Position numbers and translations under genes: made by a program. This document shows, one piece after another, positions 1 through 6,566 of a stretch of 64,000 nucleotides of DNA. The notes under the pieces are model-generated. The model was not told the DNA's origin, made no database searches, and worked only from the letters and a program-made list of their open reading frames with translations. This DNA is from Phycisphaeraceae bacterium (GTDB taxonomy: Bacteria; Planctomycetota; Phycisphaerae; Phycisphaerales; UBA1924). Each line of letters starts with the position of its first letter. The first letter of the stretch is position 1. The stretch is from assembly GCA_019636515.1 (NCBI GenBank), contig JAHBXI010000003.1, forward strand, positions 641,478 to 705,477, given 5' to 3'.

Positions 1-1298
1 ACGCGATGGAGCACATGCGCGAGCAGCGCGTCAAGCAGATCGCCAGCCGGATCGTCGAAGCAGCCCTCGGCGTCGGCATCGAGCGCGATCGGGTCTGGAA
101 CGATGAGAAGAAGAAATGGCGATACGCGAAGCGCCCGCGTAGCCCGCTCTATCACGAGGACGGTGAGGGTACCCCCCACGGCGACCCGCGTTTCAAGACC
201 TGCCACGCCGTCGTCATCGAGAACCTGCGCAACTACCGCCCCGATGAACTCCAGACCCGGCGCGAAAACCGCGCCCTGATGAACTGGTCCGCCGGCAAGG
301 TCCGCAAGTACCTCGAAGAGGCGTGCGAACTCCACGGCCTGCACCTGCGCGAGGTCATGCCCAACTACACCAGCCGCCAGTGCAGCCGAACAGGGCAACC
401 CGGCATCCGCTGCATGGACGTGTACGTCGATCCGATAGCCGGCGAGCCGAAGGCGTACTGGTGGAAGAAGGCGCTCAGCGCCGCAAGGAAGAAAGCCGGC
501 AACGGTGATCAGAGCGAGAAGAGGGGCGATGGCGAGTCGCGCTTCATCATCGACCTCGCTGATCAACTCGTCAAATTCAAGGCCGACGGCAAGCCGCTGC
601 CCGAGACCGTGCGTGTTCCCCGTAAGGCCGGCGACCTGTTCGTCGCAGCGCCGCCGTGGTCCTGCCATGCTGACGCCCATCGACCGTGCCCGCTCTGCGA
701 TGCCAAGCGCGCTGTGCAGGCCGATCTCAACGCCGCCGCCAACATCGGCCTGCGGGCACTGCTCGACCCCGACTTTCCCGGCAGGTGGTGGTACGTGCCG
801 GCCGCGATGGACAACGAGGGATGGCGCGTCCCCGCCCCGAAGAGTTGCACGGGGGCCGCCTGCCTCGATGGTTGGAAGGTCGCGCAGAAGGATGGCTGTT
901 TCAGAACGGACGGAACGCCGCTCGGCACGGCTGACGATGAATCCGTCAAGAGAGCCGAAGAAGCGGTGGCCTCCGCAAAGAAGGTGCTCGATGCAGCCAA
1001 GAAGGCCGCGAAAAAGCCCGGCGCGGACCAGACGGGACTCTGCACAGCGAAGGAGTGCCACGAAAAGGCCAAGGCGGCGCTGAAGGATGCGAAAAAGGCT
1101 GCGTCGCAGAAGGAGATCGTCAACATCTGGCAGGATCCCAGGACCGATCGGCCACAGCCCTCCGCTGGTCGTTGGCGGGAGACCACCGCCTACTGGAGCA
1201 TCGTCCGCGCCCGCGTCATTTCTCGCCTCCGGGCCGCGACTGGATTGGATGAGCCGGAGGGCGCTGAGCCGATTGCTGACCAAGACGTGTCTTGCTAG
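1..1298 (+). CDS. cas12b: Cas12b-like type V CRISPR effector, C-terminal fragment (gene continues upstream of the window)
   Basis: The ORF is open from base 1 and stops at 1298. It contains a RuvC-II-like HAVVIENLRNY motif, a TnpB-like YTSRQCSRTG motif, a CHADAHRPCPLC zinc finger and a RuvC-III ADLNAAANIG motif. The tail (AYWWKKAL ... GRWRETTAYWSIVRARVISRL) resembles the AacCas12b C-terminus from memory (PWWLNKF ... GNWTRQKEFWSMVNQRIEGYLVKQIR). A CRISPR array starts 350 bp downstream on the same strand. Confidence 0.8.
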   Translation, partial: AMEHMREQRVKQIASRIVEAALGVGIERDRVWNDEKKKWRYAKRPRSPLYHEDGEGTPHGDPRFKTCHAVVIENLRNYRPDELQTRRENRALMNWSAGKVRKYLEEACELHGLHLREVMPNYTSRQCSRTGQPGIRCMDVYVDPIAGEPKAYWWKKALSAARKKAGNGDQSEKRGDGESRFIIDLADQLVKFKADGKPLPETVRVPRKAGDLFVAAPPWSCHADAHRPCPLCDAKRAVQADLNAAANIGLRALLDPDFPGRWWYVPAAMDNEGWRVPAPKSCTGAACLDGWKVAQKDGCFRTDGTPLGTADDESVKRAEEAVASAKKVLDAAKKAAKKPGADQTGLCTAKECHEKAKAALKDAKKAASQKEIVNIWQDPRTDRPQPSAGRWRETTAYWSIVRARVISRLRAATGLDEPEGAEPIADQDVSC

Positions 1299-1627
1299 AA
1301 TGACCGCAATCGCCCACGGGGCGAGGGAATCCCGAGCACGTGTCTTCGCCTTCAATGGCCCTGGCACTCGGCATCAATCAGGCTCGCGTTGGCTCCGCCC
1401 GCTGGAGGGGGAGCCGGTGTTCTTTGACAAGTCGGCTTCCCGCGGCCCCGCTGGTGGGGGTGGGGGGGCGAGTGCGATGGTGGTGAAGAGGGGTGCCGGG
1501 CACGCTCGCACTCCCCGGTTTTCGGCTGGAATCCGTGGTTTTTGCCGCGTCCAGAGATCAGAAAATGACGGTCCGATCGCTCCAAAACCGCTCATGCTCG
1601 CCAGAGGCCGCGCAAGTGGCTTTTTTT
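1299..1627 (+). ncRNA. CRISPR leader and candidate tracrRNA, with a putative anti-repeat at about 1601-1620 and a T7 run at 1621-1627
   Basis: CAGAGGCCGCGCAAGTGGCTT followed by TTTTTTT is imperfectly complementary to repeat positions 8-24 (AAGCCCACGCGGCCCUG), with bulges. It sits between cas12 and the array on the effector strand. This is a hypothesis only. Confidence 0.3.
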
Positions 1628-1648
1628 CAAGGCTTTGCGAGTGCGGCA

Positions 1649-2605
1649 GCCGCGGAAGCCCACGCGGCCCTGATGGATGGACACGCTTTCGTAGTTGCCC
1701 AGCCCGCCAACGCTACCACCGCCGCGGAAGCCCACGCGGCCCTGATGGATGGACACTTCTCCTTGCCCTCTTGGGCGGTCCCCGACTCACTCGCCGCGGA
1801 AGCCCACGCGGCCCTGATGGATGGACACTTGGCGAAGGTCGTGGCGGCCTCCGGCGTCGGGGCCGCGGAAGCCCACGCGGCCCTGATGGATGGACACCTG
1901 TGTCCCGCCAGGCCATCGCCATCACACTCAGCCGCGGAAGCCCACGCGGCCCTGATGGATGGACACATCACATGGCCAGCGCGAGGATCACCGGTGTCGG
2001 CGCCGCGGAAGCCCACGCGGCCCTGATGGATGGACACGCGTGGACCGGGATGAGATGTGTGGCACAGGACGGGCCGCGGAAGCCCACGCGGCCCTGATGG
2101 ATGGACACGGATCGTCCTTGGCGGGTAACGAGTCGCCGCCGCAGCCGCGGAAGCCCACGCGGCCCTGATGGATGGACACCGCGCCGAGTGTGGGCTGTAC
2201 TGCCGCCCGCGGCGGCCGCGGAAGCCCACGCGGCCCTGATGGATGGACACGCTTCGAGTTGCGTACGGCCCTGCATGAAGTTCTGCGCCGCGGAAGCCCA
2301 CGCGGCCCTGATGGATGGACACACGATGTCGTCCTGCTCGCGCCAGTCTCGGACATCGCCGCGGAAGCCCACGCGGCCCTGATGGATGGACACAGATTGC
2401 CCAAGATGTACGGAATCGTGCCCCGCTTGCCGCGGAAGCCCACGCGGCCCTGATGGATGGACACGAGACCATGTGGAGCGACTTCCGGATGGCCGCGGAG
2501 GCCGCGGAAGCCCACGCGGCCCTGATGGATGGACACCGCTGGGTGGCCGCCGAGGTGTGCGGGTACGCCGCCGCGGAAGCCCACGCGGCCCTGATGCACG
2601 GGCAT
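1649..2605 (+). CRISPR. CRISPR array of 14 repeats and 13 spacers; the 36-nt repeat is GCCGCGGAAGCCCACGCGGCCCTGATGGATGGACAC
   Basis: Repeats start at 1649, 1721, 1793, 1862, 1931, 2002, 2073, 2144, 2215, 2287, 2357, 2428, 2501 and 2570. Spacers are 33-37 nt and all unique. The last repeat is degenerate (…CTGATGCACGGGCAT), so the leader is at the cas12-proximal end. The repeat carries a 5' hairpin (GCCGCG/CGCGGC) and ends in GGACAC, like the Cas12b GGCAC ending. Confidence 0.97.
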
Positions 2606-2711
2606 GGCGGCTTGTGGTTCGGACGGCCGACTCGGTTTTTAATCGAGCGGTGTCCGCGTCATCGCCATCACGCGCCCCGCGCGTCCCCTCCCCGACGCGT
2701 CCCCCCCGCGC

Positions 2712-3071
2712 CTACCCCCGCACCAACTCCTTGAATCCACCGCACGCCATCCGCTTGCAGTCAAACGGCATCGCCTTGGGGTCCATGCACTCGGCCAGCC
2801 GCGAATCCTTCATCACCTTCTTGTTCACGCGGTCGCGGTGCGCCCGCGACTTGTACACGATCCACGCGAACACCACCGTCTCACCGGGGCGGGTCTTGGC
2901 CATCTTCGGGAACGGCGTGCAGAACGTCGTGTTCACATCGTCCGCCACGCACTCGTGATACGCCAGGGCCCCGTGCTCCATCCACACCTTGCTCGCCTTC
3001 TTCGCCAGCGCCTTGTACTTGGCCAGGTTCTTCGTCGGCACCGGCAGCACGAATCCATCCACGTAGTTCAT
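2712..3071 (-). CDS. DUF1428 family protein
   Basis: 119 aa with an MNYVDGFVLPVP N-terminus typical of DUF1428. Confidence 0.75.
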   Translation of the reverse strand: MNYVDGFVLPVPTKNLAKYKALAKKASKVWMEHGALAYHECVADDVNTTFCTPFPKMAKTRPGETVVFAWIVYKSRAHRDRVNKKVMKDSRLAECMDPKAMPFDCKRMACGGFKELVRG

Positions 3072-3151
3072 TCCAACTTCCCTTCATTGAGTGGTTGCCA
3101 ATTCGATCGCCTCTCGGCACGATCCTACCCGTTCCCGCGCCGCTTTGCCCA

Positions 3152-3607
3152 TCACCCGCTCCCCCGGCCCGCCAGTTCCCGTATCCGCTCGATCCCGTAG
3201 TCCCACCCCGACTCGACCCCCTCGATGTCGTCGTCGGGCATCAGCCCCATCGCCCGGTGCGTCAGCGTCAGCCGGGTCCCGCTCCCCTCCGCCGCCAGGC
3301 GGTACCGTACGAAATTGACCGCCGGGTACGACATGAACATCGGCCCGGAGATCTCCAGCAGGCGCGGCGGCTTGACCACCTGCACCGTTCCCCAGAAATG
3401 CCCGGCCCGGTTCCCCAGGTCCCGGTACCAACGCCCCCCGGGCCACAGTTCGATCTTCATCGGGAACGCCACGTCCCCGGGCATCCGCGATTCCTCGCCA
3501 AGTTCATCCACCACCGCCCGGAACGTCGCCTCGATCGCCGCCTCGATGAACACATCCCGCTGGATGTGCAGCGACCGGATTGCCTCCCCCGTCTCGTTCT
3601 TGACCAT
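3152..3607 (-). CDS. SRPBCC (Aha1/AHSA1-like) domain protein
   Basis: 151 aa with an activator-of-Hsp90-ATPase-like fold signature, downstream of ArsR in the same orientation. Confidence 0.7.
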   Translation of the reverse strand: MVKNETGEAIRSLHIQRDVFIEAAIEATFRAVVDELGEESRMPGDVAFPMKIELWPGGRWYRDLGNRAGHFWGTVQVVKPPRLLEISGPMFMSYPAVNFVRYRLAAEGSGTRLTLTHRAMGLMPDDDIEGVESGWDYGIERIRELAGRGSG

Positions 3608-3647
3608 GTGCGTTTCTCCTCGGCGGAGCGCGGCGATCCCGCGCGGG

Positions 3648-4064
3648 TCATAGGTACTTGCCCTTCCAGACCGGCCACGGCGGGATCACCGGCGCCTTCC
3701 CGGGCGTCGCCTGGGAGGAATCCCGGGATTCCTTCCCCCGGCGGGCCGTTCGCTCGGCCCGCGACTTGATCCTCGACAGGTGCTGGTCCCAGTGCTTCTT
3801 GAAGGTGTCGGCCCAGTCGCGCACCTCGCGCAGAGGCTCCCCTCGCACCGCGTACATACGCTCGCGCCCGCGCCGGCGAACCGCCACCAGGCCCGCCGCG
3901 CGCAGCACGCCCAGGTGCTTCGACACCGACGGCTGCGGGAGGGTGATCGACTCGATGATCTGGGTGACCGTCCGCTCCCCGCGGGCCAGCGCCAGGAGGA
4001 TCCTCCGCCGGCTGGGGTCGGCGACGGCCTGGAAGACATCGACGGCGGCGCGGGCGCGGGGCAT
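3648..4064 (-). CDS. ArsR/SmtB family transcriptional regulator
   Basis: HTH region DPSRRRILLALARGERTVTQIIESITLPQPSVSKHLGVLRAAGLV; classic ArsR-SRPBCC operon arrangement. Confidence 0.85.
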   Translation of the reverse strand: MPRARAAVDVFQAVADPSRRRILLALARGERTVTQIIESITLPQPSVSKHLGVLRAAGLVAVRRRGRERMYAVRGEPLREVRDWADTFKKHWDQHLSRIKSRAERTARRGKESRDSSQATPGKAPVIPPWPVWKGKYL

Positions 4065-4135
4065 GCCGGCATCATATTCCCAATTGAGAATATGTCAAAC
4101 CGGCGTTCCCGCACGCCCGGGCGGGGGTCGTTAGG

Positions 4136-5767
4136 ATGGGGGGGATGCCTTCGCCGGGCCTGGCCGAACCCCTGATCGAGATCCACCCCTCCCTGTGGGC
4201 GCTGGCGGCGCTGAACTGGGTCCTGCGCCTGGTGCTGGTGGTGGTGGTGATCCACAAGCGGCGGCCCAACGTCGCCCTGGCGTGGGTTGTGATCGTGCTT
4301 TTTCAGCCCGTGGCGGGCGGGATCCTGTTCCTGCTCATCGGCCGCATCCGGATCGACGCGACGACTACCCGCCGGTACGCGAGCCTGGCGGCGCGGAGTT
4401 TGGCGCTGGCGGCGCGGCGCGGGTCGGTGGATGTGCCCGCGCGGTTCAAGGACCTGGTGCGTCTGTCGGAATCGCTGAACCTTCACCCGCCGACGAGCGG
4501 CAACCGTGTCGGGCTTGTGGGTTCGCACGCGGGGTTCGTCGGGGGGCTGGTGGAGGACATCGACCGGGCGAGCGTTTCGGTGAGCGTGCTGTATTACATT
4601 TTCCTGGATGACCAGGTGGGGCGGGAGGTGGCCGGGGCGTTGTCGCGGGCGGCCGGTCGCGGGGTCCGGTGCCGACTGCTGGTGGATGCGGTGGGTTCGC
4701 GGTCGATCCTGTCGTCGCGTGCGGGGTCTTTGCGGGCGGCGGGCGTGGAGGTTCGCGCGGCGCTGCCGGTGCGGCCGTGGCGTGCCTTGCTGGTGCGGGC
4801 GGACATCCGCAACCACCGCAAACTGGCGGTGATCGACGGCCGGGTCGCCTGGGCGGGATCGCATAACATGTGCGAGGAGCACTACGGGCACTCTGGGTAT
4901 GGTCCGTGGATCGACCTGACGGCTCGCCTTGAAGGCCCGGCGGTGGCGCAACTGGCCCAGGTTTTCGAGGAGGACTGGTACGCGCAGACGGAGGAAGCCG
5001 CCGAGAGCGAGGCGCCCCTGCCGGAGGTCGATCCCGGGGTTGTACCCGAGGTGGTACCCCAAGCGGGGTCCCTGGCCCGGTCGGGATCGGGCATTGGAGC
5101 CGCGACGGAATCTGGAACCGCGACTGGATCCGGATCTGGACCTGGATCTGGACCTGGATATGGAGCGGCCATGGCGGCTGGATCGGCGGCCGGGCATGCC
5201 GAGCACGCCGGGGCGGGCATGGCGGTGGTGCAGGTCTTCCGCTCGGGGCCGACGGGTTTTCCGGACAGTCTCGAGCCTCTCTTGATCGCGGCGATGCACG
5301 AGGCGGAGGAGCGGATCGTGCTGACCGCTCCGTACTTTGTTCCGACGTCGGCGATCCTGCTGGCGCTGCGGATCGCGGTGCTGCGCGGCGTGCGCGTGGA
5401 CGTGATCGTTCCGGCGCGGAGCAATCACCCGCTGGTTCAGGCGGCGGGCCGGGCGAGTTTCGAGGAGGTCCTGGAGTCGGGGGTGAACATCCACCTTCAT
5501 TCACCGGGACTGCTGCACAGCAAGACGATGCTGGTGGACGATTCGTTCGCGTTGATCGGGACGGCGAATTTCGATGTGCGGTCCATCTCGCTGAATTTCG
5601 AACTCAAACTGCTGATCTTCGACCACGAGACGGTGCGGACGCTGGTGTCAATCCACGAGGGATACCTGCGTTCGTCGGTCCCGGTGTGCCTGGATGCGTG
5701 GGCTCGCCGCGGGCGGGCGCGGCGGCTGGGGGAGAACCTCGCCCGGCTGTTTACCCCTCTTCTGTGA
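4136..5767 (+). CDS. cls: cardiolipin synthase (PLD family, two HKD motifs)
   Basis: Two N-terminal TM helices, NHRKLAVIDG and LHSKTMLVDD HKD motifs, and GTANFDVRS. Confidence 0.9.
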   Translation: MGGMPSPGLAEPLIEIHPSLWALAALNWVLRLVLVVVVIHKRRPNVALAWVVIVLFQPVAGGILFLLIGRIRIDATTTRRYASLAARSLALAARRGSVDVPARFKDLVRLSESLNLHPPTSGNRVGLVGSHAGFVGGLVEDIDRASVSVSVLYYIFLDDQVGREVAGALSRAAGRGVRCRLLVDAVGSRSILSSRAGSLRAAGVEVRAALPVRPWRALLVRADIRNHRKLAVIDGRVAWAGSHNMCEEHYGHSGYGPWIDLTARLEGPAVAQLAQVFEEDWYAQTEEAAESEAPLPEVDPGVVPEVVPQAGSLARSGSGIGAATESGTATGSGSGPGSGPGYGAAMAAGSAAGHAEHAGAGMAVVQVFRSGPTGFPDSLEPLLIAAMHEAEERIVLTAPYFVPTSAILLALRIAVLRGVRVDVIVPARSNHPLVQAAGRASFEEVLESGVNIHLHSPGLLHSKTMLVDDSFALIGTANFDVRSISLNFELKLLIFDHETVRTLVSIHEGYLRSSVPVCLDAWARRGRARRLGENLARLFTPLL

Positions 5768-6566
5768 TGAAACCGGCGTCGTTCCAGGCGGCCAGGATTC
5801 GCGGGGCGGCCAGGTCGGGCCTTTGGATTGCCCGCAGGTCGGCGACGACCGGGCGCGTGTATCGGACGATGGAGAGGGCGGCGGCGTACGAGGTCAGGTC
5901 GAGTCGTCCGGTGGGTGAGCCGGCGGGGACCCGGGCGGCCCCGTCGTGGTCGGAAAGCCGGCACTGGGCCGGGGCCGCGCGAAGACGAGTGACGGTGTCG
6001 AAGACATCCTCGCCGGCGGAGAGGATGACCGCTGGGTCGATGCCGATGCCGATGGTGGACTCGGGTTCGGGGTTTGCGGCGTCGGAGGTTGAGTCGGCGG
6101 GACGGGGTGTTCGGCGGTGATCGGCGATGGTGATCCCCAGGCGTGCCGCGGCGGCGGCGAACTGCATCATGACGTCCGTTGCGATGCCCGCGGGAGTCTC
6201 GATGGCGACGACGGCCCGTCCGCGGGGTGCGGCGTGCGGAGTGGCGTCCAGGTCCGCGGCGAGTTCGATGGCGCCGAGGATGGCGGCGACGGCCCGGTCG
6301 ATGGTGGCCTGCTCGACAAGGTGCCGCGGGGGGATGAAGGCGTCGATGCCTGCCAGGGAGATCTGGCGGCGACGGAGGATGGAGGCCAGGTCGCGGCGGG
6401 CGGAGCGGTCGAGGTCTCTGGGTCGGAGTCCCGGGGCGGTGGCGTCGAGTTGGAGGTGCCGCGGGTTCAGCCCGGCGGCCCACTCGATCAGCGCGCGGGG
6501 GTCTTCGGATCCGCCGGGAGGGCGGATGCCGGAGAGGGAGAGTGCGACCGGTACGGTCGGGGGCAT
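5751..6566 (-). CDS. hypothetical protein (possibly TIM-barrel sugar-phosphate isomerase-like)
   Basis: The long ORF has its start trimmed to Met53. No motif I can name with confidence. Confidence 0.35.
   Translation of the reverse strand: MPPTVPVALSLSGIRPPGGSEDPRALIEWAAGLNPRHLQLDATAPGLRPRDLDRSARRDLASILRRRQISLAGIDAFIPPRHLVEQATIDRAVAAILGAIELAADLDATPHAAPRGRAVVAIETPAGIATDVMMQFAAAAARLGITIADHRRTPRPADSTSDAANPEPESTIGIGIDPAVILSAGEDVFDTVTRLRAAPAQCRLSDHDGAARVPAGSPTGRLDLTSYAAALSIVRYTRPVVADLRAIQRPDLAAPRILAAWNDAGFITEEG

What the first reader, a model, noticed from the sequence alone, without database searches (positions are those of the whole stretch)
1560..1648. Candidate tracrRNA anti-repeat with terminator between cas12b and the array
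Positions about 1601-1620 (CAGAGGCCGCGCAAGTGGCTT) can pair imperfectly with the central part of the repeat (AAGCCCACGCGGCCCUG; a shared GGCCGCG core plus GTGGCTT against TGGGCTT), with bulges. The segment is immediately followed by T7 (1621-1627). A 3' anti-repeat followed by a terminator on the effector strand is the arrangement expected for a V-B tracrRNA. The remaining about 300 nt of the cas12-array spacer would form the tracrRNA body. In 70% GC DNA a 7-mer match is not significant on its own, so this stays a hypothesis.
Basis: inference. Interest (0 to 1): 0.7.

Follow-up and report, generated by a model that had tools for sequence, protein, structure and literature searches.

The report
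Misplaced tracrRNA call; flagged segment is leader
The flagged stretch just before the CRISPR array is the conserved end of the array's leader, not the guide-helper RNA's pairing site; the real Cas12b tracrRNA lies about 230 bases upstream, right after the cas12b stop codon, and belongs to an already characterised family.

Summary
The sequence is real (CAGAGGCCGCGCAAGTGGCTT at 1602-1622, one base off; T7 at 1621-1627). Its pairing with the repeat is not above chance: -28.1 kcal/mol, 5th percentile of equal-length windows in this 67% GC DNA. In 12 related loci with arrays, the homologous segment does not track the repeat.

Co-folding 1299-1627 with the repeat puts all 24 intermolecular pairs at 1372-1398.

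The real tracrRNA starts near 1308, on the cas12b strand.
- Promoter: TTGCTG-N17-TAGAAT (1273-1301), present in 17/17 loci.
- Scaffold: three stems plus GUGUC (1340-1344), which pairs with the repeat's 3' GACAC.
- Anti-repeat: 1372-1394, covarying with the repeat (11 pairs changed on both sides).
- 3' region: GC hairpin 1386-1420 and UUCUUU, then a second anti-repeat half at 1431-1446.

The scaffold matches the published ChCas12b sgRNA (PDB 9KLN). A covariance model hits the window once, at 1305-1436 (E about 1e-39).

The flagged region is the repeat-proximal leader. It carries conserved motifs at fixed spacing. Its hairpin shows no covariation and its T-run occurs in only about 10 of 17 loci.

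Verdict: the general idea is right and the location is wrong. This is a new member of a known kind.

The parts
3..1298 (+). 3' part of cas12b (C-terminal 431 aa; the gene runs off the window start). Large ChCas12b-like clade.
   Evidence: Pfam C2c1_RuvC-like, E = 1e-16. PDB 9KLN (ChCas12b), E = 6.5e-56. A full-length relative in L010 (1481 aa) matches 9KLN with E = 0.
1273..1301 (+). Sigma-70-type promoter of the tracrRNA. The -35 is TTGCTG (1273-1278), the spacer is 17 nt, and the -10 is TAGAAT (1296-1301), which overlaps the cas12b stop codon TAG.
   Evidence: TTGnnn-N17-TAnnnT is found in 17/17 related loci, 29-30 nt before the CCGAG of stem 2. This holds whether or not the sequence is coding there. 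The pattern occurs in 0.09% of 57-nt stretches of the window. Function is inferred; there are no transcript data.
1308..1446 (+). tracrRNA. The 5' end near 1308 is inferred from the promoter. The 3' end is either at the U-tract 1421-1425 (short form) or at or beyond 1446 (long form that includes the second anti-repeat half).
   Evidence: The covariance model gives one hit in the whole window, 1305-1436 +, 140 bits, E about 1e-39. The scaffold is homologous to the ChCas12b sgRNA. Covariation supports the structure.
1310..1324 (+). Stem 1 of the tracrRNA (UCGCC-C ACG G-GGCGA). It corresponds to ChCas12b stem 1, whose loop is UACAG.
   Evidence: All 6 pairs are paired in 100% of cells, and 4 pairs change on both sides. 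The ChCas12b structure is described in PMC12204704.
1332..1371 (+). Stem 2 (CCGAG 1332-1336 with CUCGG 1367-1371). It encloses GUGUC (1340-1344, pairs with repeat positions 32-36, 'R:AR duplex 2') and stem 3 (GCC-UUCAAU-GGC, 1348-1359).
   Evidence: Stem 2 is paired in 97% of cells. GUGUC:GACAC is invariant. Stem 3 shows a compensatory G-C to C-G change. The same elements are seen in the ChCas12b cryo-EM structure.
1372..1394 (+). Anti-repeat, first half (CAUCAAUCAGGCUCGCGUUGGCU). It pairs without gaps with repeat positions 31-9.
   Evidence: Co-fold and duplex results. 11 of 23 pairs change on both sides across loci, and 0 of 500 shuffles reach the observed values. It is specific for the locus's own repeat in the divergent loci L004 and L011.
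1386..1425 (+). GC-rich hairpin (1386-1420, -22 kcal/mol) followed by UUCUUU. It is either an intrinsic, possibly leaky, terminator or an internal arm of a three-way junction. The conserved linker UCUUUGACAA is at 1421-1430.
   Evidence: The only terminator-like site in the scan of 1100-3200. A hairpin of variable sequence is followed by invariant TCTTTG in most loci.
1431..1446 (+). Anti-repeat, second half (GUCGGCUUCCCGCGGC). It pairs with repeat positions 15-1.
   Evidence: Own-repeat duplex is -25.9 kcal/mol (1.3rd percentile). It tracks the repeat in L004, L001, L009 and L019/L020. It is absent in L011 and L025, whose anti-repeat is continuous. An unconstrained co-fold of 1308-1450 uses it.
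1447..1648 (+). CRISPR leader. It contains the conserved module 1468-1509 (GCGAGUGCG ... CACGCUCGC), and the distance from that module to the first repeat is fixed.
   Evidence: The stretch from 12 nt before the module to the end of repeat 1 is 223-228 nt in all 17 loci. Alignments A1 and A3. 3 of the 12 exact GCGAGYGYG copies listed for the window (5 matches not shown) lie in this 180 nt.
1593..1648 (+). Elements: CATGCTCGC (1593-1601), hairpin-capable AGAGGCCGC-GCAA-GTGGCTTTT (1603-1624) with the conserved CGCAAGTG, T7 (1621-1627), an IHF-consensus-like TTTCAAGGCTTTG (1625-1637), and the junction motif TTTGCGAGTGCGGCA (1634-1648).
   Evidence: The motifs are conserved at fixed positions. The hairpin shows no covariation: 52.9% of cells paired against 50.1% in shuffles. 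There is no tracking of the repeat. The IHF-like match is 1 of 7 in 64 kb.
1649..2605 (+). CRISPR array. 14 repeats of 36 nt and 13 spacers of 33-36 nt. The last repeat is degenerate at its 3' end.

Best explanation
The flagged segment (1560-1648) is the repeat-proximal end of the CRISPR leader of a type V-B (Cas12b) locus. It is not a tracrRNA anti-repeat or its terminator.

The tracrRNA is encoded about 230 nt upstream, on the same strand, directly after the cas12b stop codon.
- It has its own promoter (TTGCTG-N17-TAGAAT, 1273-1301), and transcription starts near 1308.
- The RNA folds into stem 1 (1310-1324), stem 2 (1332-1336 with 1367-1371) and stem 3 (1348-1359).
- It pairs with every repeat of the pre-crRNA in two places. 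GUGUC (1340-1344) pairs with the repeat's last five bases, GACAC. The anti-repeat 1372-1394 pairs with repeat positions 31-9.
- After a GC hairpin and a UUCUUU tract (1386-1425), a second anti-repeat half (1431-1446) can pair with repeat positions 15-1.

Inferred steps, not shown here: a host RNase, probably RNase III, cuts the long duplex. Cas12b then holds the scaffold with the 3' part of the repeat and the spacer, as in the ChCas12b-sgRNA structure.

The flagged leader segment most likely works at the DNA level. It would provide conserved docking or bending signals next to the first repeat for Cas1-Cas2 spacer integration, and possibly for array transcription. This last step is inference.
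For: Placement of the anti-repeat.
- Co-folding 1299-1627 with the repeat puts all 24 intermolecular pairs at 1372-1398 and none at 1601-1627.
- Duplex energy with the locus's own repeat, averaged over 13 loci, is -40.4 kcal/mol for the 1369-1404 homologue and -19.6 for the flagged homologue.

Covariation (alignment A1).
- 91% of cells are paired, against 31-47% when partners are slid.
- 16 pairs change on both sides, 11 of them in the anti-repeat helix.
- 0 of 500 shuffles reach the observed values.
- RNAalifold independently finds stems 1-3.

Homology.
- The covariance model gives a single hit in the window, at 1305-1436 (140 bits). It also hits 6 loci that were not used to build it.
- The protein matches ChCas12b, PDB 9KLN.
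- The published ChCas12b sgRNA shares the core ACGUGUCUUC(C/G)CCUUCAAUGG(G/C)C(G/C)UGGCAC. It has the same stem, linker and two-duplex layout (PMC12204704).

Expression signals.
- The promoter pattern is present in 17/17 loci at a fixed distance, against a background of 0.09%.
- The second anti-repeat half is supported.

Leader status of the flagged segment.
- It lies on the side of the array opposite the degenerate repeat.
- Its motifs are conserved at fixed spacing.
- cas1 and cas2 are present upstream of cas12b in relative L010.
Against: - There are no transcript data. The 5' end, the 3' end and any processing are inferred.
- By energy alone even the true anti-repeat is only at the 0.08-0.4th percentile in this GC-rich DNA. 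The case rests on covariation and homology.
- The 3' end is ambiguous. The hairpin plus UUCUUU looks like a terminator, yet a covarying anti-repeat half lies beyond it.
- GUGUC can also pair in cis with GGCAC at 1363-1367. Both are invariant, so covariation cannot decide between the two pairings.
- No function of the flagged leader motifs was tested. No conserved sigma-70-type promoter for the array was found in the leader.
- The window does not include the region upstream of cas12b, so the presence of cas1 and cas2 here is unknown.
Confidence: 0.9

Rival explanations
1. 1602-1622 is the tracrRNA anti-repeat, T7 (1621-1627) is its terminator, and 1299-1627 is one roughly 330-nt tracrRNA.
For: An imperfect 19-bp bulged duplex with the repeat can be drawn (-28.1 kcal/mol). 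A hairpin plus U-run exists. T7 runs are rare in this DNA.
Against: - The energy is at the 5th percentile of the background.
- The co-fold ignores this site.
- Homologous segments in loci with different repeats do not track them. Own-repeat mean is -19.6 kcal/mol. In L004 own is -12.5, against up to -27.7 with foreign repeats.
- The hairpin shows no covariation.
- The T-run is absent or degraded in L004, L013, L016, L017, L019, L020 and L014.
- A terminator 21 nt before repeat 1 would leave no room for an array promoter.
- A much better, covarying anti-repeat exists at 1372-1394.
Confidence: 0.03
2. The hairpin and T7 at 1603-1627 act at the RNA level. They would be an attenuator or terminator on a read-through transcript that starts at the tracrRNA promoter and runs through the leader into the array, and would set the tracrRNA-to-pre-crRNA ratio.
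For: No TTGnnn-N16-18-TAnnnT promoter is found anywhere in the leader of 17 loci, whereas 17/17 have one upstream of the tracrRNA. The second anti-repeat half lies beyond the first hairpin and U-tract, which implies read-through there. A 9-bp GNRA-loop hairpin followed by U's exists in the window.
Against: The hairpin register is not conserved and shows no covariation. The T-run is present in only about 10 of 17 loci. RNAalifold finds no convincing leader structure (-12 kcal/mol, covariation term -1.06). Planctomycete promoters may simply not fit the sigma-70 pattern that was searched.
Confidence: 0.1
3. The T-rich tract and the adjoining TTTCAAGGCTTTG (1625-1637) form an IHF-type bending site. 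Together with the conserved junction motif TTTGCGAGTGCGGCA and the upstream GCGAGYGYG copies, it would position Cas1-Cas2 at the first repeat. This is a specific version of the leader explanation.
For: There is a 12/13 match to WATCAANNNNTTR, 12 nt from repeat 1. It is one of only 7 such matches in 64 kb. The position resembles the IHF site of type I-E leaders (my own knowledge). The leader has a fixed length. The GCGAGYGYG motif is enriched in the leader. cas1 and cas2 are present in L010.
Against: The match was found post hoc, and 4.7 such matches are expected by chance in the window. The motif is only partly conserved: good in window, L010, L018, L024 and L014, poor in L001, L013, L019 and L020. 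No IHF dependence is known for type V-B, and nothing was tested.
Confidence: 0.25

Closest known systems
ChCas12b (Candidatus Hydrogenedentes Cas12b) tracrRNA/sgRNA, PDB 9KLN-9KLQ (Li et al., NAR 2025, PMC12204704)
   Same: The protein is from the same large-Cas12b clade. The RNA has the same order of elements. Stem 1 has a UACAG-type loop. Stem 2 encloses GUGUC, which pairs with the repeat's 3' GACAC (R:AR duplex 2). Stem 3 has a UUCAAU loop. The anti-repeat (R:AR duplex 1) follows directly after stem 2, with one internal mismatch. The core ACGUGUCUUCNCCUUCAAUGGNCNUGGCAC is nearly identical.
   Different: Stems 1 and 2 differ in sequence, by compensatory changes. The published RNA is an engineered 75-nt truncation. 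Here the genomic context shows the full gene: its own promoter, a long anti-repeat split by a hairpin and U-tract, and a second anti-repeat half. Nothing here is tested experimentally.
AacCas12b and BthCas12b tracrRNAs (PDB 5U30, 5WTI; classical type V-B)
   Same: The principle is the same. A tracrRNA with a 3' anti-repeat pairs with the repeat, and the repeat's last bases (GGCAC there, GACAC here) pair with a separate upstream tracr segment (PMC12204704; my own knowledge for the Aac sequence).
   Different: Stem lengths and linkers differ. The proteins are only distantly similar (E = 1e-10 to 1e-6). Those loci carry cas4, cas1 and cas2 between cas12b and the array (my own knowledge). Here cas12b directly abuts the tracrRNA and array, and in L010 cas1-cas2 lie upstream.
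Type II (Cas9) tracrRNA
   Same: A trans-encoded RNA whose anti-repeat pairs with every repeat of the pre-crRNA. Anti-repeat and repeat co-evolve.
   Different: In Cas9 systems the anti-repeat is at the 5' end and the scaffold at the 3' end, and there is no second duplex with the repeat's end. Rfam holds no family that matches here.
CRISPR leaders with integration signals (type I-E/I-F IHF site, type II-A leader-anchoring sequence)
   Same: For the flagged segment: conserved motifs directly upstream of the first repeat, a T-rich tract, an IHF-consensus-like site 12 nt from the repeat, and fixed spacing to upstream motifs.
   Different: No V-B leader signals have been defined, to my knowledge. 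The motif GCGAGYGYG and the 42-nt module at 1468-1509 match nothing I can name. Function is untested.

Membership tests
Type V-B (Cas12b) tracrRNA, as claimed for the flagged segment 1602-1627 | Complementarity to the locus's own repeat is above background and is the best in the neighbourhood. | tested here: not met
   -28.1 kcal/mol, the 5th percentile. The co-fold places all pairs at 1372-1398. The local scan ranks 1366-1405 first.
Type V-B (Cas12b) tracrRNA, as claimed for the flagged segment 1602-1627 | The anti-repeat covaries with the repeat in related loci. | tested here: not met
   Own-repeat mean is -19.6 kcal/mol, and the own repeat is not preferred over foreign repeats. The conserved CGCAAGTG stays constant while the repeats change.
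Intrinsic terminator, as claimed for the hairpin and T7 at 1603-1627 | A stable GC-rich stem directly followed by a U-tract, conserved as a structure. | tested here: not met
   Not reported by the scan. -12 kcal/mol, z = -1.6, and the stem uses 4 of the 7 U's. 52.9% of cells paired against 50.1% in shuffles, with slid registers equally good. The T-run is present in about 10 of 17 loci.
Type V-B tracrRNA of the ChCas12b clade, for 1308-1446 | Encoded next to a cas12b gene and a CRISPR array, on the strand that can pair with the crRNA. | tested here: met
   It lies between the cas12b stop (1298) and repeat 1 (1649), on the + strand. The layout is the same in most related loci. The cas12b-to-array gap is 327-405 nt in the 13 loci where it was measured, except L006 (2465 nt).
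Type V-B tracrRNA of the ChCas12b clade, for 1308-1446 | An anti-repeat that pairs with the repeat and covaries with it. | tested here: met
Type V-B tracrRNA of the ChCas12b clade, for 1308-1446 | A scaffold with stems 1-3 and a separate 5-nt segment that pairs with the repeat's 3' end, as in the solved ChCas12b-sgRNA structure. | tested here: met
   Stems are supported by covariation. Sequence alignment to the published sgRNA and the structure description. GUGUC:GACAC is invariant, so it is supported by homology only.
Type V-B tracrRNA of the ChCas12b clade, for 1308-1446 | Expressed as a small RNA, bound by Cas12b, and required for cleavage. | not testable with these tools
   Only a conserved promoter pattern and a terminator-like hairpin are available. 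There are no RNA-seq or biochemical data.
CRISPR leader, for 1447-1648 including the flagged segment | It directly flanks the first repeat, at the end opposite the degenerate terminal repeat, and is conserved among related arrays. | tested here: met
   The degenerate repeat is at 2570-2605. Motifs are conserved and the length is fixed.
CRISPR leader, for 1447-1648 including the flagged segment | It contains the array promoter and the signals used by Cas1-Cas2. | tested here: inconclusive
   No conserved sigma-70-type promoter was found. cas1 and cas2 are seen only in relative L010. The IHF-like site is suggestive only.

The most novel reading that the evidence does not exclude
In this Planctomycetota Cas12b clade the anti-repeat is split by an inserted hairpin, a U-tract and a conserved linker. 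The insertion is flanked by a 7-nt duplicated stretch, and both halves still track the repeat.

Together with the lack of any recognisable array promoter, this would mean that tracrRNA, leader and CRISPR array are one transcription unit driven by the single promoter at the cas12b stop codon. The hairpin and U-tract would act as a leaky terminator that sets the tracrRNA-to-pre-crRNA ratio.

The leader, of fixed length and carrying four copies of GCGAGYGYG and a conserved 42-nt module, would then be a new kind of V-B leader signal, acting either as RNA or as DNA.
Probability: 0.25. Interest if true: 0.55.

Novelty: new member of a known kind. Interest (0 to 1): 0.3.

Why it matters
The corrected coordinates give a ready design for a guide RNA for this large Cas12b: tracr 1308 to about 1384, plus the repeat's last 16-20 nt. 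The relocation also shows how easily a chance GC-rich match next to a T-run can be mistaken for an anti-repeat in high-GC DNA.

The family itself is already characterised structurally (ChCas12b), so the tracrRNA is not new in kind. Three modest points of interest remain.
- The tracrRNA promoter overlaps the effector's stop codon and is conserved in 17/17 loci. This arrangement recalls the omega-RNA at the 3' end of tnpB.
- The anti-repeat is bipartite.
- The V-B leader is unusually well conserved and of fixed length, and its signals have not been described.

Tried and rejected
- **Rfam.** A permissive E-value scan of 1-5000 gave only chance-level hits and no tracrRNA family.
- **Promoter and terminator scan of 1100-3200.** It found no promoter, because its hexamer rule is too strict for TTGCTG. 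The only terminator-like site was at 1400-1419, not at the T7.
- **Inverted-repeat search.** It found nothing. The anti-repeat is too imperfect for exact seeds.
- **Conserved hairpin at 1603-1624.** Rejected: no covariation.
- **Conserved RNA structure of the whole leader.** RNAalifold gave a weak result. The predicted pairs are nearly all invariant, so they are uninformative.
- **Module 1468-1509 as a degenerate repeat (mini-CRISPR or regulatory crRNA).** Only 12/36 identity to the repeat by eye, near the chance level. Dropped.
- **Sigma-54 or sigma-70 promoter in the leader.** No conserved sigma-70 match. The sigma-54-like spacing in AGGCTTTGCGAGTGC is broken in L001 and L013.
- **TTGACA at 1424-1429 as the -35 of an array promoter.** There is no -10 at the right distance, and the spacing to downstream motifs varies.
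- **Second terminator candidate at 1513-1543 (hairpin plus T5).** Weak and inconsistent across loci.
- **The flagged segment as a direct partial repeat copy (GCCGCGCAAG against GCCGCGGAAG).** Not maintained in other loci.
- **Minus-strand ORFs over the leader (1352-1585, 1374-1595).** Treated as spurious. Leader length differences among loci are not multiples of three.
Full report
**Setting.** The window opens inside a cas12b gene on the + strand. Its last 431 codons end at the TAG at 1296-1298 (Pfam C2c1_RuvC-like, E = 1e-16). A CRISPR array of 14 repeats of 36 nt (GCCGCGGAAGCCCACGCGGCCCTGATGGATGGACAC) runs from 1649 to 2605. The last copy is degenerate at its 3' end, so the leader is on the cas12b side and the array is read on the + strand.

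**Checking the observation.**
- The quoted letters are at 1602-1622, one base off, and T7 is at 1621-1627.
- RNAduplex can pair 1601-1627 with the repeat at -28.1 kcal/mol.
- About 5% of equal-length windows anywhere in this 67% GC window do as well (2% for 1602-1622).
- The 7-mer GGCCGCG, or its complement, occurs 0.4-0.5 times per kb per strand outside the array.
- The terminator scan does not report the hairpin before the T-run.
- Folded alone, it is AGAGGCCGC-GCAA-GUGGCUUUU, -12 kcal/mol, z = -1.6, and it uses four of the seven U's.
- T-runs of 7 or more are rare here, three in 64 kb. The T-tract is therefore a real compositional feature even though the pairing is not.

All 24 intermolecular pairs fall at 1372-1398 and none near 1602-1627. 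A sliding duplex scan had already ranked + strand 1366-1405 as the best local partner. The segment GCATCAATCAGGCTCGCGTTGGCTCCGCCCGC (1371-1402) is collinear, without gaps, with the reverse complement of repeat positions 32-1. Its energy of -39.8 kcal/mol is at the 0.08th percentile.

**Related loci.** The protein fragment retrieved 3 contigs by identity, 15 loci from Planctomycetota genome bins and 8 metagenome loci. Identity ranged from 41% to 75%. In 12 of these loci the array lies 327-405 nt after the cas12b stop, as it does here. The exception is L006, at 2465 nt.

The alignment of these gaps (A1) shows three conserved modules:
- a tracrRNA-like module directly after the stop codon;
- a 42-nt module in the middle;

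**The anti-repeat covaries with the repeat.** Where repeats differ, the 1372-1394 homologue changes with them.

| Locus | Repeat segment | Anti-repeat segment |
|---|---|---|
| L004 | ...CGGCCAAGTGATCGACC | GGTCTATCACTTGGCCG |
| L011 | ...CTGACGGGTTTCTCATCGATG | CATCGTTGAGAAAATCGGCAG |

L013, L016 and L017 (GATCAATG / CATTGATC), L014 (TCTG / CAGA) and L001 (CTTG / CAAG) follow the same rule.

- In the two most divergent loci the own repeat is clearly preferred for the former and not for the latter.
- I counted pairs on A1 for stems 1-3, the GUGUC:GACAC duplex and the 23-pair anti-repeat helix. 91% of cells are paired, against 31-47% with slid partners. 16 pairs change on both sides, 11 of them in the anti-repeat helix. 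0 of 500 shuffles reach the observed values.
- One position (C1383 opposite repeat C20) is unpaired in 12 of 13 loci. This is a conserved mismatch.

**The scaffold and its known relative.**
- RNAalifold independently predicts stem 1 (1310-1324), stem 2 (CCGA/UCGG) and stem 3 (GCC-UUCAAU-GGC).
- The full-length relative in L010 (1481 aa) matches PDB 9KLN with E = 0, and the window fragment matches it with E = 6.5e-56.
- 9KLN is ChCas12b (Li et al., NAR 2025, PMC12204704).
- That paper describes a 75-nt tracrRNA with stem 1 and a UACAG linker. A six-pair stem 2 encloses G(-60)-C(-56), which pairs with the last five repeat bases (R:AR duplex 2). Stem 3 has a UUCAAU loop, and R:AR duplex 1 follows directly after stem 2.
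- The sgRNA sequence reconstructed from their primers is GGCUUCUACAGGAGGCGAAAAGACUGCGGAACGUGUCUUCCCCUUCAAUGGGCGUGGCACCGCAGCGUUGUUCAG plus repeat CCUGAUCAACGGACAC. It aligns with window 1307-1394 and shares the core ACGUGUCUUCNCCUUCAAUGGNCNUGGCAC.
- A covariance model built from 15 loci gives one hit in the 64-kb window, 1305-1436 +, 140 bits, E about 1e-39. It also hits six loci not used to build it.
- Rfam has no matching family.

**Expression signals.**
- All 17 loci with a complete gap carry TTGnnn-N17-TAnnnT 29-30 nt upstream of the CCGAG of stem 2.
- In the window this is TTGCTG (1273-1278) and TAGAAT (1296-1301). The latter overlaps the stop codon.
- The pattern occurs in 0.09% of 57-nt stretches of the window. 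It is conserved whether or not the stretch is coding, so I read it as the tracrRNA promoter, with a start near 1308 (inference).
- Downstream of the anti-repeat, every locus of the main lineage has a GC-rich hairpin of variable sequence, followed by the invariant TCTTTG. In the window this is 1386-1420, -22 kcal/mol, then UUCUUU. It is the only terminator-like site found by the scan.

**A second anti-repeat half.** The hairpin is not necessarily the end of the RNA.
- After the conserved linker UCUUUGACAA comes GUCGGCUUCCCGCGGC (1431-1446). This is the reverse complement of repeat positions 15-1, with one mismatch and one bulge.
- It tracks the repeat. L004 has TTTGGCCGGCACAATTCGCCGCC against the expected CTTGGCCGGCGGATTCGTCGGC. 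Its own-repeat energy is -23.6 kcal/mol, against -9.8 to -17.7 with foreign repeats. L001, L009, L019 and L020 behave likewise.
- It is missing in L011 and L025, whose anti-repeat is continuous and lacks the hairpin.
- An unconstrained co-fold of 1308-1450 with the repeat gives a three-way junction. 1372-1389 pairs with repeat 31-14, an internal hairpin follows, and 1434-1446 pairs with repeat 12-1. The binding gain is -15.6 kcal/mol, against -7.5 for the form ending at 1425.
- The 3' end is therefore either at the U-tract (short form) or beyond 1446 (long form). Only transcript mapping can decide.

**What the flagged segment is.**
- It belongs to the third module: CATGCTCGC (1593-1601), CGCAAGTG (1611-1618), a T-rich tract, and TTTGCGAGTGCGGCA directly before repeat 1. 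All sit at fixed positions in the alignment.
- The stretch from 12 nt before the middle module to the end of repeat 1 is 223-228 nt in all 17 loci, although the intervening sequence is poorly conserved.
- The 9-mer GCGAGYGYG occurs exactly three times in this 180 nt (1468 +, 1501 -, 1637 +), with a fourth near-copy at 1593 -. The output lists 12 exact copies in the 64 kb, with 5 matches not shown.
- The hairpin that the window can form at 1603-1624 has no covariation support. 52.9% of cells are paired against 50.1% in shuffles, and slid registers are equally good. Other loci form stems in other registers.
- The T-run is present in about 10 of 17 loci.
- TTTCAAGGCTTTG (1625-1637) matches the IHF consensus WATCAANNNNTTR in 12 of 13 positions. 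It is one of seven such matches in the window, against 4.7 expected. This is suggestive only.
- cas1 and cas2 lie upstream of cas12b in L010, so an adaptation module exists in the clade.
- I conclude that the segment is the repeat-proximal leader. A DNA-level role in spacer integration or array expression is the most likely function, but it is untested.

**Open points.**
- No sigma-70-type promoter pattern is found in the leader of any locus. With the anti-repeat half beyond the first hairpin, this leaves open that tracrRNA, leader and array are co-transcribed.
- GUGUC could pair in cis with GGCAC (1363-1367) in the free RNA. In the ChCas12b complex it pairs with the crRNA.
- RNase III processing is assumed by analogy, not shown.

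**Verdict.** The real tracrRNA (about 1308-1425 or 1446) is a new member of the ChCas12b-type tracrRNA family.

Noticed in passing
window 1468-1509 (also 1593-1601 and 1637-1645): A conserved 42-nt leader module, GCGAGTGCGA-GGTGGTGAAGAGGGGTGCCGG-GCACGCTCGC, is present in all 17 loci. Its loop sequence is conserved as well. The arm motif GCGAGYGYG recurs four times in the leader, twice in each orientation. 3 of the 12 exact copies listed for the 64 kb (5 matches not shown) lie here. Its function is unknown, and the hairpin arms are invariant, so covariation is uninformative.
   Followed up: partly
window 1457-1684 and the homologous stretches of 16 loci (alignment A3): The stretch from 12 nt before the middle leader module to the end of the first repeat is 223-228 nt in every locus. 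The alignment is almost free of gaps even though the central 80 nt or so is poorly conserved. This points to a spacing constraint.
   Followed up: partly
window 1421-1430: The linker UCUUUGACAA between the hairpin and the second anti-repeat half is nearly invariant across loci. It contains a perfect TTGACA. No -10 element follows at the right distance, so its conservation is unexplained.
   Followed up: partly
window 1383 opposite repeat position 20; also 1376 opposite repeat position 27: There are conserved mismatches inside the repeat:anti-repeat duplex. The first is unpaired in 12 of 13 loci. The ChCas12b sgRNA also has an internal mismatch in its duplex 1. This may be a recognition or processing feature.
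   Followed up: no
L010 1268-1387, minus strand: A second, divergent tracr-like copy (47 bits, E = 7e-12) lies between cas2 (983-1273) and cas12b (1626-6071), on the opposite strand. It has stem 1, GUGUC, the UUCGAU-loop stem and a partial anti-repeat (CAUCAGG..CGCG). The corresponding region of the window lies before its start.
   Followed up: partly
L001 80-4871 and 5215-5322: In the closest contig relative (73% identity) cas12b is called as two overlapping genes (80-3778 and 3726-4871). This suggests a frameshift. The array has only two, mutually divergent, repeats. The locus may be decaying, yet it keeps an intact tracrRNA and leader.
   Followed up: no
window about 940-1110: The Cas12b C-terminal region contains a lysine/alanine-rich stretch (KRAEEAVASAKKVLDAAKKAAKKPG...KAKAALKDAKKAAS). 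Many homologues cover only about 61-67% of the query, so it may be a lineage-specific insertion.
   Followed up: no
L004 about 4515-4545: In L004 the second anti-repeat half is followed at once by a canonical terminator (CGCCGCCGGGGCG hairpin plus T7). This is the clearest hint that the long tracrRNA form, which includes the second half, is the real transcript in at least that locus.
   Followed up: partly
window 2712-4064, minus strand: Directly after the array the genes switch to the minus strand (ORFs 2712-3071, 3152-3607, 3648-4064). No cas genes are evident downstream, so any adaptation genes would be upstream of the window start.
   Followed up: no
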